Both the position numbers and the translations under genes were made by a program. Below are positions 33,603 to 61,975 of a DNA stretch of 64,000 nt, piece by piece. The stretch's first letter is position 1. Every line of letters begins with the position of its first letter. The DNA comes from an uncultured delta proteobacterium (lineage in GTDB: Bacteria; Desulfobacterota; Binatia; UBA9968): positions 1 through 64,000 of the forward strand of contig CAVSLC010000028.1 of assembly GCA_963728565.1 (NCBI GenBank), given 5' to 3'. The notes beneath the pieces are model-generated. The model worked only from the letters and a program-made list of their open reading frames with translations, had not been told where the DNA came from and did no database searches.

Positions 33603-33917
33603 TCAGCGAAGCCACGAGAGAGTCAGGACAAGCAACGTACCAGCAAGCATGCCGCTGACTGCGCTTCTGGTGATATAGGCAACGGCAATCGTCAGAGCCA
33701 ATGCCAGGGCTCGCGACGGAGCAAGGTGCAACTCAAACTTTCCATCTGTCATAAAGAGCGTCACTCCGACAATGCTGCAAATAAAAGCGTAGGATAAATA
33801 GCGTAACAGCCGGTCCAAGGATTCAGGAAATCTCCGGCCGACAAAAATCAGCTGCGGCAGGGCGCGCACGGCGAAGGCCATGAATCCCATGATCAAGATA
33901 ATGCCGATGCGCGACAT
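33603..33917 (-). CDS. azlD: AzlD-domain branched-chain amino acid export protein
   Basis: Small hydrophobic ORF overlapping the azlC end; F.VRALP...L.R.L.Y. Confidence 0.7.
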   Translation of the reverse strand: MSRIGIILIMGFMAFAVRALPQLIFVGRRFPESLDRLLRYLSYAFICSIVGVTLFMTDGKFELHLAPSRALALALTIAVAYITRSAVSGMLAGTLLVLTLSWLR

Positions 33918-34753: not shown

Positions 34754-34911
34754 TAGCAGGTTGCTGAAAACTCTGGTTGCAGGCTGCTCAAAAAGATCCA
34801 GAGGCGCGCGAAGCACAAGGATGAAAGCGGAAATCTGAAAGCGGAATTCAGTTTTCAGCTTTCATAATTGATCTTTCACATCGCATATGGGTCTTTTTCA
34901 GCAGCCTGCTA
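34754..34911 (+). mobile_element. MITE-like repeat copy B, core replaced by a TGAAAGCG/CAGCTTTCA repeat
   Basis: TAGCAGGTTGCTGAAAA..GCAGGCTGCTCAAAAAGATCC ... GGGTCTTTTTCAGCAGCCTGCTA. Confidence 0.75.
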
Positions 34912-58638: not shown

Positions 58639-59658
58639 ATGCAGACTGTAGAGAATGAACGAGGTTATGCGATTATTTTCGTAACCGTCATGATTGTTCT
58701 GCTCCTGATCATGATCGGCATGGCGTTAGATAGCGGGCACCTCGCATACGTCAGATCACAGGGGCAGCCGGCAGTGGATGCGGCGGCTCTGGCGGCGGCT
58801 TCCGCAATACCAAGCGGAAATTGGTCAACCGTTACTAATCGGGCGGCCAAGTTTAATCCGGGCGGGAGTAATCCTGGTACCGGCAACAATTATCTAGACA
58901 GTCCTAATAATGCGATTGATCAGCAAAACGTGACGCTGGTGAAGTATGACAATGCGACTGGGGAATTTACCACCTCCGGGGTCAGCATCGCTAATGCTAA
59001 TGGAGCGCGCGTCGCGTTGGAAAACAAGAACCCTCACGGCGGCTCTGCGGGAGAAGCGATGAAGTCTCCATTGTTCTTGACGCCTCTGCTCAATCTATTC
59101 GGTCAAACCACAGAAGGCACTGCTAACGTGAGCGTCAGCGCGGTTGCTGTCAACCAGGCCCTTCCAGCACTACCAATTGTCGTCGTGGAAAGTGCCTGCG
59201 GTATGGATACAACGCTTGACTTACGGACGGGAGGTAAAGGAAATGCCGGCTGGGAAACTTACCAAATTGAGAACGCAAGCACAGATGAGGTCCGTGCCCT
59301 ATTTGAGAAGCTGCCCCAGTGCGCCGGCCAGCCGGCGATCGATGTCGGCTACTGTGGAAATATCGCCAATGGGGTGAACGCAACGATCTTTAATGAGCAC
59401 CTAAAGCCTATGTTCAAAGCTGACCCCAACCGGTGTTACTTAATTCCAGTAATCAAGAATGGCGGCAACTTGAACCAGTGCCAGATGATCACAGATTGGG
59501 CACGTTTCTGCCCCGATAAGGGGAATAACACAGCAGACGCATTCCCCGGGCAGGGTCAGCTCAAGGGCAGAGTTACTTGCGGCCAGAGTGTTCACGAGTC
59601 ACGGGATAGCCAATGTTTTGTTCAACGCCTGGTGCGAGATAAAACGTCAGGTATGTAA
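58639..59658 (+). CDS. tadG: TadG-like Flp pilus-associated protein
   Basis: ERG + TM, G.A.D.G, Q.A.DAAALAAA; Cys-rich C-terminal domain. Confidence 0.75.
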   Translation: MQTVENERGYAIIFVTVMIVLLLIMIGMALDSGHLAYVRSQGQPAVDAAALAAASAIPSGNWSTVTNRAAKFNPGGSNPGTGNNYLDSPNNAIDQQNVTLVKYDNATGEFTTSGVSIANANGARVALENKNPHGGSAGEAMKSPLFLTPLLNLFGQTTEGTANVSVSAVAVNQALPALPIVVVESACGMDTTLDLRTGGKGNAGWETYQIENASTDEVRALFEKLPQCAGQPAIDVGYCGNIANGVNATIFNEHLKPMFKADPNRCYLIPVIKNGGNLNQCQMITDWARFCPDKGNNTADAFPGQGQLKGRVTCGQSVHESRDSQCFVQRLVRDKTSGM

Positions 59659-59690
59659 GGATTCACGGGCGATTGTGGTCGGGGGTCACT

Positions 59691-60222
59691 CATTAAAAGC
59701 TTGTCAAGCTCTCGTTTAGATGTACCTCTTCACGGGAGGCGTGGGGTTAGTCTAATCACCCACACTGCCGTTGTTTGCGACCAGAGTTCTGTTCGGTCTC
59801 GGTCGACAATTCGGTCAGTCACTCATCCGTGCTCTTCGGCACATTATTGAATTCGACTCTGGTCTCCTAATCAAATCTTCGGATCTCCGGTTTAGGCCGG
59901 GACCATGACCCCAGGAGGATGACCAGAGACGTCGGTAACTTTTTTTCGCCCAGGTACAGCCATAAGTCGTTGCCGAGGTCTGTGACGCTTAAACGACTCA
60001 CTTCGCTTTAGCATGGCGTAAATGACATCGAAAAATAACTTTCCAACGCCGCTTGAGTCACAGGTACAGTAACCTTGCTGGTTGTCTTTCCCTGTCGATC
60101 TTTCTTTACCACCACGGCCTTGCGCTTCCTCAGGTCCACTCCTACATACTCTTTCATGCTGCACCTCCTTTAGGCTTAGGCGACTCCTCACAGAATCAGC
60201 CTGGTATAATGTTGGTCCATTA
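59691..60222 (-). mobile_element. Internally deleted IS110-family element (mini-IS110)
   Basis: SD AAGGAGG + MKEYVGVDL (DEDD N-terminus, ATG 60157) fused out of frame to a C-terminal KL..DVIYAMLK..E.F (stop 59892). CATTA at both ends. TTGACA in the right end and CATTAT in the left end. Confidence 0.8.
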
Positions 60223-60302
60223 GAGATCGTCACCGCCCATTTGCGAGGTGCAGCTCACATCCCTAGCTTTTCATTTAATCAAGTCTTGCGGTGCCACCCT
60301 GT

Positions 60303-60680
60303 TCAAGTTGTTTGCTCGATCTGTTTGAGTCTGCGGCTCACCGTTTCATCGTGAACGCGCGAATGCGCGGCAATCTCATCAAGCCCGTACCTACGATCGT
60401 ATGCCTCGGCTATCGCTCTGTTTCCGCTTTGCAAATATCCGCGCCAGCGTCGGCTTGGCAGCTCTTAACTGTACCGCGGAAATTCTTTAAGATTCCGATT
60501 CGGAGCTGCGTGCTTCTCGATAATGATTCGCTCCCTAAATAGATCTCCCTTTTAGCTCTTCCTATGGCCGCCGCGCCGCTCCGTCTCTGACGAGTTCCGG
60601 GACTGCTTCCTCCGCTTGTGCCGTCACTTGCCGAATTGCGCGAGGATCCGATCGGTGCTTAGAATTCTTCCCGGGCCACT
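60303..60680 (-). pseudogene. Remnant of the C-terminal half of a RAYT-like (Y1 + HTH) transposase
   Basis: Across frameshifts and stops: EF.STD.ILAQFGK, VRDG..RRP*EELKG.IYLGSES, AIAEAY...YGLDEIAAH..VH.ETVSRRLK. Confidence 0.65.
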
Positions 60681-60737
60681 CAGCGGTCTCTCTGTAACTG
60701 CTCCATTTCCAACTCTGAGGCTCCATATTCCACTCTC

Positions 60738-61745
60738 CTATCTGAACATTTCCCTGAACTTCTTGCTCCAGCTCTCCAGCTCTTCTTTACTCGGCAGCCG
60801 CATTACGACGATTTGATCGTCTTTCACATCTTTTTTGAACTTGTGGTCGGCCTCGGGGTGGAACACGTACTCGCCGTAATTGCCGAAGATGGTTTGCGCT
60901 TCAGGGCCAACAAAAAAATCCGTGAACAGGCGCGCCGCATTGGGGTGCGGCGCTTGCCGGTTGATCGCCACGAAGCTCAGCGAGGACAGGTATTTGTTCA
61001 TGCGCACGTACTCGATCGGTCCCGGATACTGGTATTTATCTTTGATGTAGCCGAGCGCAACCTGCACCTCTCCGGAAGTCAGCGGCTGGATCGTATCCGC
61101 AAGGCTCCGTCCGACCCGCGGATCGTTTTTCGCCCAGCCTTCAACGACCTGCAGCCATTTCGGGCCGATGAGCTTGTCGAGATTGAGAACGAACTGCAGT
61201 GTGGTCACGTGGATCCCAGGATTGGCCATGCCGAACTTGCCCTTCCACTTGGGATCGACCATTTCTTCCCAGGTCTTCGGCGCCTCCGATGTTTTCAAGA
61301 GCTGATGGTTGAAGTTGATGCCGTATGGGAGCACGCGCCAGGGCGTCATCTTTTTGTCCGCGTCGAGAAACTGCTTGGGATAGCCTTTTGCCGCTGGTGG
61401 CTCGAATACAGCAAAGAGATTTTTCTCATCGAGGCTGGCCATGACGACTTCATTGCCGAGGGTCACGTCGAATCCTGGCTTGCCCGCCCGCGCCTCGGCT
61501 AGCGAACGATTGATCAGCTCAGTCGCGTCGCCGCGCCAGTGGCGCAATTTGACGCCGTATTTCTTCTCGAAGGCGTCGCCGATGGCTTTCGCTGAACTGA
61601 CGGTGATGGCGCCGTAGAACATCACCTCGCCTTCCTTCTTCGCCGCTTCGATCAGCTCCGGGGTGATCTGCGCCACAAGGGTGATAGGTAACGTAAAAAC
61701 AAGCACGGCGATGGTCAGCGCCGCCCGCAAAACACGGTGCAACAT
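60738..61745 (-). CDS. ABC substrate-binding protein (Fe-type)
   Basis: Signal peptide; AAKKEG.V.FY, PKTWEE..DPKWKG, APHPNAARLF.DF. Confidence 0.85.
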   Translation of the reverse strand: MLHRVLRAALTIAVLVFTLPITLVAQITPELIEAAKKEGEVMFYGAITVSSAKAIGDAFEKKYGVKLRHWRGDATELINRSLAEARAGKPGFDVTLGNEVVMASLDEKNLFAVFEPPAAKGYPKQFLDADKKMTPWRVLPYGINFNHQLLKTSEAPKTWEEMVDPKWKGKFGMANPGIHVTTLQFVLNLDKLIGPKWLQVVEGWAKNDPRVGRSLADTIQPLTSGEVQVALGYIKDKYQYPGPIEYVRMNKYLSSLSFVAINRQAPHPNAARLFTDFFVGPEAQTIFGNYGEYVFHPEADHKFKKDVKDDQIVVMRLPSKEELESWSKKFREMFR

Positions 61746-61865: not shown

Positions 61866-61975
61866 GGGCCGGTCCTGCGATACCACATTGTTCAATTCCT
61901 GTGCTCGATGTTTGAGCCTGCGGCTCACTGTAGTTTAATGAAATCCAAAGGGGCGGCAATCTCATGAAGGCGGCG
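61866..61975 (-). pseudogene. Second RAYT-like HTH 3' remnant
   Basis: About 90-bp degenerate direct repeat of 60292-60383; reads RLHEIAA...TTVSRRLK. Confidence 0.55.

What the first reader, a model, noticed from the sequence alone, without database searches (positions are those of the whole stretch)
59700..59935. Candidate bridge/seek RNA in the downstream end with a 9-nt match to its own target
Seen (- strand): nested stems CTCTGGTC/GACCAGAG, CCGG-CCTAAA-CCGG, GTCGA-ATTC/GAAT-TCGAC, GTGC-CGAAGA-GCAC and GTGGG/CCCAC. An internal loop contains ATGAGTGAC (59818-59826), identical to the core plus outside flank at 59685-59693; chance is about 200/4^9, roughly 1e-3 per orientation. Weaker candidate guides are TGGTCC against the left end GGACCA, and ATTAG against the other flank. 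Established: IS110/IS1111 ncRNA loops base-pair with target and donor DNA. Inference: a 3'-encoded guide RNA, without obvious IS1111-type subterminal IRs, preserved in a mini element.
Basis: partly seen in the sequence, partly recalled or inferred. Interest (0 to 1): 0.75.

Follow-up and report, generated by a model that had tools for sequence, protein, structure and literature searches.

The report
Bridge RNA of a decayed IS1111-type element
The flagged stretch encodes the guide ("bridge" or "seek") RNA of a transposase-less remnant of an IS1111-type insertion sequence, and the 9-letter match lets that RNA recognise the element's own right end rather than its insertion target.

Summary
ATGAGTGAC stands at 59818-59826 and 59685-59693 (minus strand), and four of the five stems belong to a conserved fold.

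The locus (about 59682-60287, minus strand) is an internally deleted IS110-family element of the IS1111 type. It lacks 819 bp of its transposase gene but keeps its 3' non-coding RNA gene.

I compared 64 related metagenome loci, 3 copies from this genome and a sister genome, and about 30 copies in relatives. The RNA has two loops, and all four guide segments co-vary with their DNA partners:
- Target loop: GGGGUCA and AAGAUU-UG.
- Donor loop: a 10-nt stretch before the GUGC hairpin, plus the flagged 9-mer.

The 9-mer is the left-donor guide. It reads 5 nt of the element's end, the TG core and 2 flank nt. It is not a target guide.

The predicted target AAGATT-TG-ACCCC occurs unoccupied twice in this genome, in the inverted repeats flanking an IS200-like Y1 transposase gene.

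The mini copy carries private substitutions, and the assembly holds no intact cognate transposase. It is probably a relic.

This is a known kind of system and a new, well-resolved family member.

The parts
60282..60287 (-). Left target half-site (LT) AAGACT, outside the element
   Evidence: It matches the RNA's left-target guide AAGAUU at 5 of 6 positions. It lies 3' of a degenerate copy of a repeated gene family. An unoccupied paralog of that family reads ...GCAAGACC-TGA-CCCC.
60279..60281 (-). Left copy of the core: TG, plus an A that belongs to the element
   Evidence: TGA stands at both junctions in 4 of 4 copies that have a left end. One of them (C15) has an extra C. In the TGT lineage the third letter differs between the two junctions, which shows the shared core is TG.
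60158..60278 (-). Left end: right-donor letters TTAA (60278-60275), subterminal inverted repeat ATGAAAAGC (60274-60266), and the leader up to the transposase ATG
   Evidence: Alignment of left ends. The repeat is the reverse complement of the right-end repeat in the metagenome loci.
60028..60157 (-). Transposase N-terminal remnant (43 codons), then the deletion joint at 60028|60027
   Evidence: BLAST of the mini against the full copy G000:C15:23354-24780 shows 819 bp missing. The translation runs into a stop shortly after the joint (read directly).
59892..60027 (-). Transposase C-terminal remnant with its stop codon TAA (59894-59892), which lies in the loop of the target-loop hairpin
   Evidence: It is 87% identical to residues 311-362 of the intact protein P0001.
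59916..59927 (-). 5' strand of stem P0, which closes the target-binding loop
   Evidence: RNAalifold on 48 sequences gives 11 pairs with strong compensatory change. For example, one pair reads UA 14, AU 14, GC 12; another reads GC 17, UA 16, CG 12.
59906..59912 (-). Right-target guide (RTG) GGGGUCA, the reverse complement of TG-ACCCC
   Evidence: The full 7-mer matches the flank in 33 of 56 loci. Co-varying types are GGGGACA/TGTCCCC, AGGGACA/TGTCCCT, UUUUCAACA/TGTTGAAAA and CUUUUGGACA/TGTCCAAAAG. Alone in one copy the match is not significant (178-219 of 1000 shuffles).
59882..59904 (-). Central stem-loop of the target loop: GGUC...GAUC enclosing CCGG-CCUAAA-CCGG
   Evidence: Four co-varying pairs, e.g. 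GC 25 / AU 12 / GU 5.
59870..59879 (-). Left-target guide (LTG) AAGAUU, then core UG, then AU
   Evidence: The 5 nt before UG equal the 5 nt of left flank before TG in 22 of 45 junctions. The permutation mean was 4.5, and 0 of 10000 reached 22. Ten distinct matched 5-mers occur. The intact copy G005:C13 matches 12 of 12 (0 of 1000 shuffles). The trailing AU follows the donor's first two letters, not the target's, in the TGT lineage.
59858..59868 (-). 3' strand of stem P0
59844..59857 (-). 5' strand of short stem P2 (GUC, 59857-59855), one unassigned base (59854), and the right-donor guide region (59853-59844)
   Evidence: P2 changes GUC/GAC to AUC/GAU, with 12 sequences changed on both sides. 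The 4 nt at 59850-59847 equal the reverse complement of the element's letters 2-5 after the core in 19 of 45 loci. The permutation mean was 3.4, and 0 of 10000 reached 19. Six matched types occur. The window copy scores 3 of 4 (UCAA against TTAA).
59828..59843 (-). Hairpin A (UGUGC-CGAAGA-GCACG) in the centre of the donor-binding loop
   Evidence: Five pairs, nearly invariant, with GC changed to AU in 6 sequences. On the 23-sequence alignment 91% of cells are paired.
59818..59826 (-). The flagged 9-mer AUGAGUGAC. It is the left-donor guide: 5 nt of the right end, the UG core, and 2 nt that follow the target's right half
   Evidence: Variants ATGAGTGAC, ATAGGTGAC, ATACGTGAC, ATAGGTGTC, ATGGGTGAC and ATAGATGTT each occur at both places.
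59814..59816 (-). 3' strand of stem P2 (GAC)
59795..59808 (-). Hairpin B2 (GGUC-N6-GACC in relatives). Its first pair is broken in the mini by the private G-to-U change at 59808
   Evidence: 85% of cells are paired, with 2 pairs changed on both sides. AGUC/GACU, AAUC/GAUU and CGUC/GACG variants appear in the alignment. RNA-library contigs carry the relatives' letters at 59808 and 59810.
59702..59707 (-). Outward-facing -35 box TTGACA
   Evidence: In reconstructed circle junctions, 38 of 46 loci give TTGACA (at least 5 of 6), a 16-18 nt spacer, and a TnnnAT -10 made of the element's first letters. No promoter-like site is found in the integrated state.
59692..59700 (-). Right subterminal inverted repeat GCTTTTAAT (GCTTTTCAT in relatives)
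59685..59693 (-). Right-end copy of the 9-mer: AT (end of the repeat), GAG (left donor), TG (core, 59688-59687) and AC (first two target letters)
59682..59686 (-). Right target half-site ACCCC, outside the element
   Evidence: The flank begins with CC in nearly all copies. The empty sites read TGACCCC.

Best explanation
**What it is.** Window 59682-60287 (minus strand) holds a non-autonomous, internally deleted copy of an IS110-family insertion sequence of the IS1111 type. Positions 59930-59790 encode that family's bridge (seek) RNA.

**How the RNA is built.** It has two adjacent loops.
- The target-binding loop is closed by an 11-bp stem. Its 5' side carries GGGGUCA, which pairs with the top strand of TG-ACCCC. 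Its 3' side carries AAGAUU-UG, which pairs with the bottom strand of AAGATT-TG.
- The donor-binding loop is closed by a 3-bp stem. Its 5' side carries about 10 nt complementary to the top strand of the element's left end. Its 3' side carries the flagged AUGAG-UG-AC, which pairs with the bottom strand of the element's right end.

**How it works.** With the DEDD/serine recombinase made by a full-length copy, the RNA would align the circular form of the element with the target AAGATT-TG-ACCCC. In the circle, the right and left ends are joined at TG, which creates a TTGACA-N16/17-TnnnAT promoter. Strands are then exchanged at the TG core.

The two letters after the core in each bottom-strand guide follow the other DNA partner. 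AU in the target loop follows the donor, and AC in the donor loop follows the target. They therefore match the integrated junctions, like handshake positions.

**Shown here by sequence comparison:**
- the anatomy of the element;
- the fold of the RNA;
- co-variation of all four guides with their DNA partners;
- the empty target sites.

**Inferred from the published family mechanism:**
- the RNA strand;
- binding of the RNA to the recombinase;
- circle formation;
- strand exchange.

**State of this copy.** The mini has lost the recombinase gene. It has one change in its right inverted repeat and two in a conserved hairpin. It is probably an inactive relic, at best mobilisable in trans.
For: **Parent element**
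- A full copy lies at G000:C15. It is 97% and 93% identical to the two parts of the mini, with 819 bp more.
- An intact copy lies at G005:C13 and encodes P0001, 362 aa.
- Family assignments: Pfam PF01548 and PF02371; NCBIfam NF033542 'IS110 family RNA-guided transposase', 227.8 bits against a cut-off of 140; IS621 transposase in the PDB at E 3.6e-15.

**RNA region in relatives**

**Fold**
- RNAalifold on 48 sequences gives 27 pairs, 17 of them with compensatory change.

**Guide-DNA matches**

| Guide | Matches | Permutation mean | Permutations reaching it |
|---|---|---|---|
| Left-donor guide vs right end | 46 of 59 exact | 22.3 | 0 of 10000 |
| Left-target guide vs left flank | 22 of 45 full | 4.5 | 0 of 10000 |
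| Right-donor guide vs left end | 19 of 45 full | 3.4 | 0 of 10000 |
| Right-target guide vs right flank | 33 of 56 full | 26.3 | 14 of 10000 |

- Two loci (L122, L128) have completely different right half-sites with matching guides.

**Empty sites**
- G001:C378 reads ...GCAAGACC-TGA-CCCC....
- G000:C7 holds the exact predicted 13-mer twice.

**Junction promoter**
- Found in 38 of 46 reconstructed circles.

**RNA libraries**
- Contigs from 4 soil or rhizosphere metatranscriptome runs, from 4 studies, lie on 59750-59958. Three of them lie there with their whole length.

**Literature**
- The order 'top-strand match 5' of bottom-strand match' and the downstream non-coding region fit the IS1111 description (PMC11187229, sections 6 and 9 read).
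- Donor-binding letters in a multi-loop, and repeats flanking the donor, fit PMC11208160 (passages read).
Against: - No experiment was done. RNA ends, RNA strand and protein binding are not shown.
- Contigs from RNA libraries can hold DNA and cannot show ends. They carry the relatives' letters at 59808 and 59810, so they are not from the mini itself.
- Related loci are not independent, so the permutation figures overstate significance.
- Guide matches are imperfect in many loci:
  - left-target guide, 23 of 45 not full;
  - right-donor guide, 26 of 45 not full, including the window's own (3 of 4);
  - left-donor guide, real 1-2 nt mismatches in L072, L098/L099, L103 and L129.
- The left flank CAAGACC-TGA is common even beside elements whose guide reads GUGCC.
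- The right-target match alone is not significant in a single copy.
- Sixteen of 80 loci gave no profile match.
- The only full copy in this 80.55%-complete assembly has a frameshift, and no other cognate recombinase was found.
Confidence: 0.9

Rival explanations
1. The loop 9-mer is a target guide: it pairs with the core plus the outside flank, and so picks the insertion site.
For: - The last 4 letters of the 9-mer (TG-AC) do cover the core and two flank letters.
- In the TGT lineage these two letters follow the flank.
- The right flank is nearly always CC(C).
Against: - Empty sites read LT-TGA-CCCC with no ATGAG.
- ATGAG lies between the subterminal repeat and the core, and it is carried by every copy whatever its flank.
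- Separate segments of the RNA co-vary with the left and right flanks.
Confidence: 0.04
2. The internal 9-mer acts as DNA, not RNA. It would be a second, internal copy of the right-end recognition site bound by the recombinase, for example an alternative end or a regulatory site.
For: - Identity of two DNA sites that co-vary is what a shared protein-binding site would also give.
- Many relatives carry transposase-less 3' fragments.
Against: - The 9-mer sits in a loop of a fold supported by compensatory changes.
- Three other segments of the same fold match DNA. Two are in the sense orientation and two are antisense, as RNA guides do.
- The protein family is characterised as RNA-guided (PMC11208160 and PMC11187229 read in part).
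Confidence: 0.04
3. The match and the stems are chance features of a decaying 3' untranslated region with no function in any copy.
For: - A 9-mer match appears in about 1% of shuffles.
- The mini itself is degenerate.
Against: - The region is conserved down to 43-56% protein identity.
- The fold and all four guide segments co-vary.
Confidence: 0.01

Closest known systems
seekRNAs of IS1111-family elements (ISEc11, ISPa11, ISKpn4, ISPst6; Siddiquee et al. 2024, PMC11187229; abstract and sections 6, 9, 10, 12, 13 read)
   Same: - The non-coding region lies downstream of the transposase gene.
- Subterminal inverted repeats are present.
- The transposase has about 360 aa and a GL-P----SG motif.
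- The RNA holds a top-strand match 5' of a bottom-strand match, and the two overlap in the target.
- A promoter forms at the circle junction.
   Different: - Here a second loop is resolved whose two guides read the element's own ends. The paper's text describes only target matches in the short seekRNA.
- Sequence relatedness to the named elements was not measured, because no sequences of them were on hand.
- The figures and supplements that show their folds could not be seen.
IS621 bridge RNA (IS110 group; Durrant et al. 2024, PMC11208160, passages read; Hiraizumi et al. 2024, PMC11208158, passages read)
   Same: - There are two loops, each with one bottom-strand and one top-strand guide around a central stem-loop.
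- The core is 2 nt.
- Letters next to a guide pair with the other DNA partner (handshake).
- The recombinase is homologous (E 3.6e-15).
   Different: - The RNA is encoded in the right end, not the left.
- The order of guides within each loop is reversed.
- The core is TG, not CT.
- The handshake-like letters sit next to the bottom-strand guides, not the top-strand guides.
- The donor loop is closed by only 3 bp.
[quoted passage not shown]
   Same: An IS1111-type element whose natural target lies in the terminal inverted repeat of another mobile gene unit.
   Different: The target here is the 22-bp repeat flanking an IS200-like Y1 transposase gene with a DnaA_C-like tail, not a Tn21-type repeat.
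ISPpu9 and its ssr9 module (Pares-Guillen et al. 2025, PMC12288879; abstract read)
   Same: This is an IS110-family element with an RNA gene downstream of the transposase gene. Copies of the RNA-bearing module also stand alone in the genome.
   Different: According to that abstract, Ssr9 was not needed for transposition. Here the RNA carries the guides. No circles were tested here.

Membership tests
IS110 family, IS1111 group (element) | DEDD (RuvC-like) N-terminal domain plus the PF02371 C-terminal domain with the SG motif | tested here: met
   Met for the parent copies: PF01548 75.7 bits and PF02371 55.7 bits; NF033542 227.8 bits; GLVPSIYSSG read in P0001. The window's mini keeps only 43 N-terminal and about 45 C-terminal codons.
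IS110 family, IS1111 group (element) | Subterminal inverted repeats of 7-17 bp with short terminal extensions | tested here: met
   ATGAAAAGC lies 4 nt from the left end, and GCTTTTCAT lies 3 nt plus the core from the right end. The mini matches at 8 of 9.
IS110 family, IS1111 group (element) | The longer non-coding region lies downstream of the transposase gene | tested here: met
   About 210 nt lie between the stop codon (59892) and the right end (59686), against about 120 nt upstream. The same holds in 64 of 80 loci.
IS110 family, IS1111 group (element) | Sequence-specific insertion at a short core present at both junctions, with no long duplication | tested here: met
   TG(A) stands at both junctions. 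Empty sites hold one copy.
Bridge RNA / seekRNA | [quoted passage not shown] | tested here: met
   The right-target and left-target guides co-vary with the flanks. The fold is supported.
Bridge RNA / seekRNA | A second loop matching the donor (the joined element ends) | tested here: met
   The left-donor guide matches in 46 of 59 loci and the right-donor guide in 19 of 45, both above all permutations.
Bridge RNA / seekRNA | The RNA is transcribed and binds the recombinase | tested here: inconclusive
   Contigs from 4 RNA libraries lie on 59750-59958. They cannot show strand, ends or freedom from DNA. Binding is not testable with these tools.
Bridge RNA / seekRNA | The RNA is required for recombination, and changing the guides re-directs it | not testable with these tools
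   This needs recombination assays.
IS110 family | A promoter is formed by joining the ends in the circular intermediate | tested here: met
   By sequence only: TTGACA, 16-18 nt, then TnnnAT in 38 of 46 reconstructed junctions. No circle was observed.

The most novel reading that the evidence does not exclude
Transposase-less units that keep the bridge RNA may be more than debris. Examples are the window's mini, a second mini with a different deletion in G005:C5, and some 25-30 right-end fragments in related genomes. They could persist as guide-bearing hitch-hikers. Their RNA could load onto a recombinase made elsewhere and direct it to their own ends, or re-direct full-length elements to the target written in the orphan's loop. 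That would be a parasitic layer on an RNA-guided transposon, comparable to the ssr9 module of ISPpu9.
Probability: 0.15. Interest if true: 0.6.

Novelty: new member of a known kind. Interest (0 to 1): 0.35.

Why it matters
Bridge and seek RNAs were described in 2024. Published detail is richest for the IS110 group (IS621), while IS1111-type RNAs are known from a few elements.

This family is abundant in soil and sediment metagenomes: 446 of the 598 pattern-matched stretches in one scan encode a relative. It allows a full reading of an IS1111-type RNA from natural variation alone:
- both loops;
- all four guides;
- a TG core;
- handshake-like letters beside the bottom-strand guides;
- the junction promoter;
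- a natural target in the repeats flanking a Y1 transposase gene.

That gives a concrete, testable design for a recombinase that could be re-programmed.

For the window itself the result is ordinary: a decayed mobile-element remnant between a Tad-like gene and a solute-binding protein gene.

Tried and rejected
- **Rfam.** No family matched at gathering score in the window. At E up to 10 on 59600-60350 there were only two chance snoRNA-like hits.
- **Genome-contig scan with P0001.** It returned only 3 loci, one of them the query's own, and was of little use.
- **Hairpin B1 (GACC-N4-GGUC).** It is less well kept than the alternative B2 (GGUC-N6-GACC). B1 was dropped.
- **Downstream CUCUGGUC (59786-59779) as partner of GACCAGAG, closing the donor loop.**
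  - It is well paired in the close subfamily (87.7% of cells).
  - Only 10 of 48 wider-family sequences beat 95% of shuffles.
  - It is therefore not a family feature. The family-wide closing stem is GUC/GAC.
- **My first idea that UUA after the left-target guide is a 3-nt handshake with the left end.** It holds only for the first two letters. UGAUUG is kept whatever the left end reads.
Rejected.
- **Left ends of the transposase-less copies in relatives.** The left-end motif was found in only 4 distinct copies: the mini, C15, G005:C13 and G005:C5. One further match, in L010, was unrelated.
- **Locating the right end independently by its T-run.** It mis-picked a later T-run in the flank in 6 loci and was off by one letter in 2. 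These are counted as misses.
- **The regex for the right-target guide.** It mis-picked in 4 loci, also counted as misses.
- **Promoter and terminator scan of the integrated locus.** 0 and 0 sites.
- **Reads.** Parts of 59600-60400 without cover in the RNA-library contigs are not interpreted.
- **Not used.** Structure prediction, complex prediction and the protein atlas were not used, because the protein family is known.
Full report
**What is at the coordinates**

On the minus strand the window reads a ribosome-binding site and ATG (60157). Then come 43 codons typical of an IS110-family transposase N-terminus, a short out-of-frame stretch, a C-terminal transposase remnant ending in TAA (59894-59892), and about 210 nt of non-coding sequence.

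The same genome holds a longer copy at G000:C15:23354-24780. The mini's 5' part matches it at 243 of 260 positions and its 3' part at 339 of 349. The longer copy has 819 bp more between them, so the deletion joint in the window lies at 60028|60027. The C15 copy encodes PF01548 and PF02371 domains but carries a frameshift.

A sister genome has an intact copy, G005:C13, encoding P0001 of 362 aa. P0001 scores 227.8 bits on NCBIfam NF033542, 'IS110 family RNA-guided transposase', against a cut-off of 140. It matches the IS621 transposase in the PDB at E 3.6e-15.

**The observation**

The 9-mer stands at both stated places, and the five stems are present. One stem, GTCGA-ATTC/GAAT-TCGAC, owes its GAAT half to two substitutions private to the mini and is not kept elsewhere.

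By shuffling, a match of 9 or more letters between the 225-nt RNA region and a 27-nt junction window turns up 12-13 times in 1000. That is suggestive but not decisive.

**Ends of the element**

Four copies have a left end: the mini, C15, G005:C13, and a second mini with a different deletion in G005:C5.
- They share ...TGA|TTAA-ATGAAAAGC... on the left and ...GCTTTTCAT-GAG-TGA|CCC... on the right. C15 has one extra C.
- ATGAAAAGC/GCTTTTCAT is a 9-bp subterminal inverted repeat. In the mini the right copy reads GCTTTTAAT.

Empty sites settle what is inside and what is outside.
- An unoccupied paralog of the mini's left-flank sequence in G001:C378 reads ...GGCAAGACC-TGA-CCCCGG....
- G000:C7 holds TGTCAACAAAAGATT-TGA-CCCC twice. 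This is the same left context in which the G005:C13 copy sits.

So ATGAG belongs to the element, one TG(A) belongs to the target, and CCCC is flank.

**A large family**

P0001 has 2886 relatives at E 1e-40 or better among the 8000 candidates scored. A scan of metagenome contigs with an alignment of 28 relatives returned 80 loci at 41-89% identity.

[quoted passage not shown] The other 16 are mostly the most distant or truncated loci.

**Fold**

RNAalifold on 48 non-identical sequences gives 27 pairs, 17 with compensatory change. The elements are:
- An 11-bp stem P0 (window 59927-59916 with 59868-59858), with pair types such as UA 14 / AU 14 / GC 12.
- A central stem in the first loop (59904-59901 with 59885-59882).
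- Hairpin A (59843-59828).
- A 3-bp stem GUC/GAC, which becomes AUC/GAU in 11-12 sequences (59857-59855 with 59816-59814).

Hairpin B2 follows, with AGUC/GACU, AAUC/GAUU and CGUC/GACG variants.

The single-sequence fold is modestly better than shuffles: z -3.45 for the mini and -2.49 for C15.

**Guides**

Segments were read by profile column and the ends were located by their own motifs.

| Guide | Window position | Result | Permutation control |
|---|---|---|---|
| Left-donor guide (the flagged 9-mer) | 59826-59818 | equals the right-end 9-mer in 46 of 59 loci | mean 22.3, max 32, 0 of 10000 |
| Left-target guide (5 nt before UG in the first loop) | 59878-59874 | equals the 5 nt of left flank before TG in 22 of 45 junctions; 10 matched types | mean 4.5, 0 of 10000 |
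| Right-target guide (GGGGUCA) | 59912-59906 | is the reverse complement of TG plus 5 flank letters in 33 of 56 loci | mean 26.3, 14 of 10000 |
| Right-donor guide (4 nt in the stretch before hairpin A) | 59850-59847 | are the reverse complement of the element's letters 2-5 after the core in 19 of 45 loci; 6 matched types | mean 3.4, 0 of 10000 |

Details for the left-donor guide:
- Of the 13 misses, 6 are mis-picked T-runs in the flank and 2 are register errors.
- Five are real 1-2 nt differences (L072, L098/L099, L103, L129).
- The pairs ATGAGTGAC, ATAGGTGAC, ATACGTGAC, ATAGGTGTC, ATGGGTGAC and ATAGATGTT each occur at both places.
- Two transposase-less copies in relatives' genomes (G033:C317, G042:C486) show ATAGGTGAC at both places.

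Details for the other guides:
- Left-target guide: the intact G005:C13 copy matches its left junction over 12 of 12 letters (0 of 1000 shuffles). The mini scores 5 of 6 and C15 scores 4 of 6.
- Right-target guide: the informative cases are GGGGACA/TGTCCCC, AGGGACA/TGTCCCT, UUUUCAACA/TGTTGAAAA (L122) and CUUUUGGACA/TGTCCAAAAG (L128).
- Right-donor guide: the window's copy scores 3 of 4.

Two guides are in the sense orientation and two are antisense. In each loop the antisense guide is 5' of the sense guide. This is the order reported for IS1111 seekRNAs (PMC11187229, section 9) and the reverse of IS621 (PMC11208158, passages).

**Core and handshake-like letters**

In the lineage with ATAGGTGTC, the left junction reads ...TG-A and the right junction reads ...TG-T. 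The shared core is therefore TG.
- In that lineage, the two letters after the core in the donor-loop guide (UC) follow the target's right half.
- The two letters after the core in the target-loop guide (AU) follow the donor's left end.
- Both bottom-strand guides therefore match the integrated junctions exactly.

I read this as the counterpart of the handshake guides of IS621. This is an inference. In IS621 the handshake letters sit beside the top-strand guides (PMC11208158, passages).

**Junction promoter**

Joining the right and left ends at the core gives TTGACA (at least 5 of 6), a 16-18 nt spacer and a TnnnAT hexamer in 38 of 46 loci. For the window's family the sequence is TTGACA-N16-TTAAAT. 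The integrated locus has no promoter-like site.

Circle-junction promoters are described for this family (PMC11187229, section 12; PMC11208158, passage).

**Target**

The window's RNA predicts AAGATT-TG-ACCCC. By arithmetic, this 13-mer is expected about 0.13 times in 9 Mb of two-strand sequence.

It occurs twice in G000, as the outer part of perfect 22-bp inverted repeats. These flank a 319-aa gene with a Y1_Tnp (IS200-like) domain (47.3 bits) and a DnaA_C-like tail that scores below its cut-off. The gene's TGA stop codon is the TG core plus the following A.

The mini lies just 3' of a degenerate member of a related repeated sequence (window 60303-60434; weak HTH matches only). Many paralog matches end at that very point.

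**Expression**

Four metatranscriptome runs from four studies hold short contigs on 59750-59958. Three lie there with their whole length, and one runs on into full-length transposase sequence.
- They carry the relatives' letters at 59808 and 59810, so they come from full-type copies elsewhere, not from the mini.
- Contigs cannot show strand or ends, and RNA libraries can hold DNA.
- This is a weak hint only.

**State of the mini**

The mini has no recombinase gene. It has one change in the right repeat and two changes that break the first pair of hairpin B2 and alter its flank.

In this 80.55%-complete assembly the only cognate gene is frameshifted. The other IS110-family genes are only 27% identical. 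The mini is most likely a relic.

Related genomes hold many more transposase-less 3' ends.

**Comparison and novelty**

Every defining sequence feature of an IS1111-type element and of a bridge/seek RNA that could be tested here is met. Transcription is only hinted at. Binding and requirement cannot be tested with these tools. This is a new, unusually well-resolved member of a known kind.

I searched the held literature three times:
- seekRNA and IS1111;
- bridge RNA, IS1111, STIR and donor-binding loop;
- bridge RNA, non-autonomous and IS110.

I saw no description of this subfamily or of guide-bearing mini elements other than the ISPpu9/ssr9 case (abstract). The supplements of the two 2024 papers, which may list it, are closed.

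Noticed in passing
L131 (G000:C7:33700-34900); repeats at C7 about 33778-33799 and 34793-34814: A 319-aa gene has a Y1_Tnp (IS200-like) domain and a DnaA_C-like tail. It is flanked by perfect 22-bp inverted repeats whose outer 13 nt are the exact target predicted from the window's bridge RNA. The gene's TGA stop codon is the TG core plus the next letter.
   Followed up: partly
window 60303-60726 and 61872-61969: These are degenerate copies of a repeated sequence, with a small HTH-like ORF ending ...RLKQIEQTT. Many paralog matches in relatives end exactly where the mini is inserted. It looks like the decayed 3' end of the same kind of Y1-transposase unit.
   Followed up: partly
G000:C15:24241-24280: The only full-length copy in this genome has a one-base frameshift just before the conserved ITKQGS motif. 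This could be a pseudogene or an assembly error in the MAG.
   Followed up: no
L029 (G005:C5:18000-20500), about 617-955: A second mini element of the same family carries a different internal deletion. The joint lies inside hairpin A, so the target loop is lost. Its left flank ATGCC-TGA matches the guide GUGCC-UGA of another copy on the same contig (L042).
   Followed up: partly
L015-L028 and L033-L049 (relatives' genomes): About 25-30 transposase-less right-end fragments have no left end within about 2 kb. In two of them (L034, L019) homology starts right at the left-target guide. In about five (L028, L033, L035, L036, L040) it starts at the beginning of the donor loop. Whether these boundaries mean anything was not tested.
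   Followed up: no
window 59786-59779: A second CUCUGGUC downstream can pair with the same GACCAGAG strand as stem P0, giving mutually exclusive helices. Both co-vary in the close subfamily, but the feature is absent from most of the wider family (10 of 48 above 95% of shuffles).
   Followed up: yes
window 59892-59930: In this subfamily the transposase reading frame runs through the 5' strand of stem P0 and the right-target guide (codons ...SGHPPGVMVPA). It stops in the loop of the target loop's hairpin. In more distant relatives the protein ends earlier.
   Followed up: no
L052-L091 (metagenome loci): The left flank CAAGACC-TGA recurs in many unrelated contigs, sometimes with 18 identical letters upstream. 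It appears even beside elements whose left-target guide reads GUGCC. This suggests a widespread conserved target sequence and tolerance of mismatches far from the core.
   Followed up: partly
window 58639-59658 and 60738-61745: The neighbours of the mini are a gene with a Tad (TadE/G-like) domain on the plus strand and a periplasmic solute-binding protein gene on the minus strand. Neither is disrupted.
   Followed up: no
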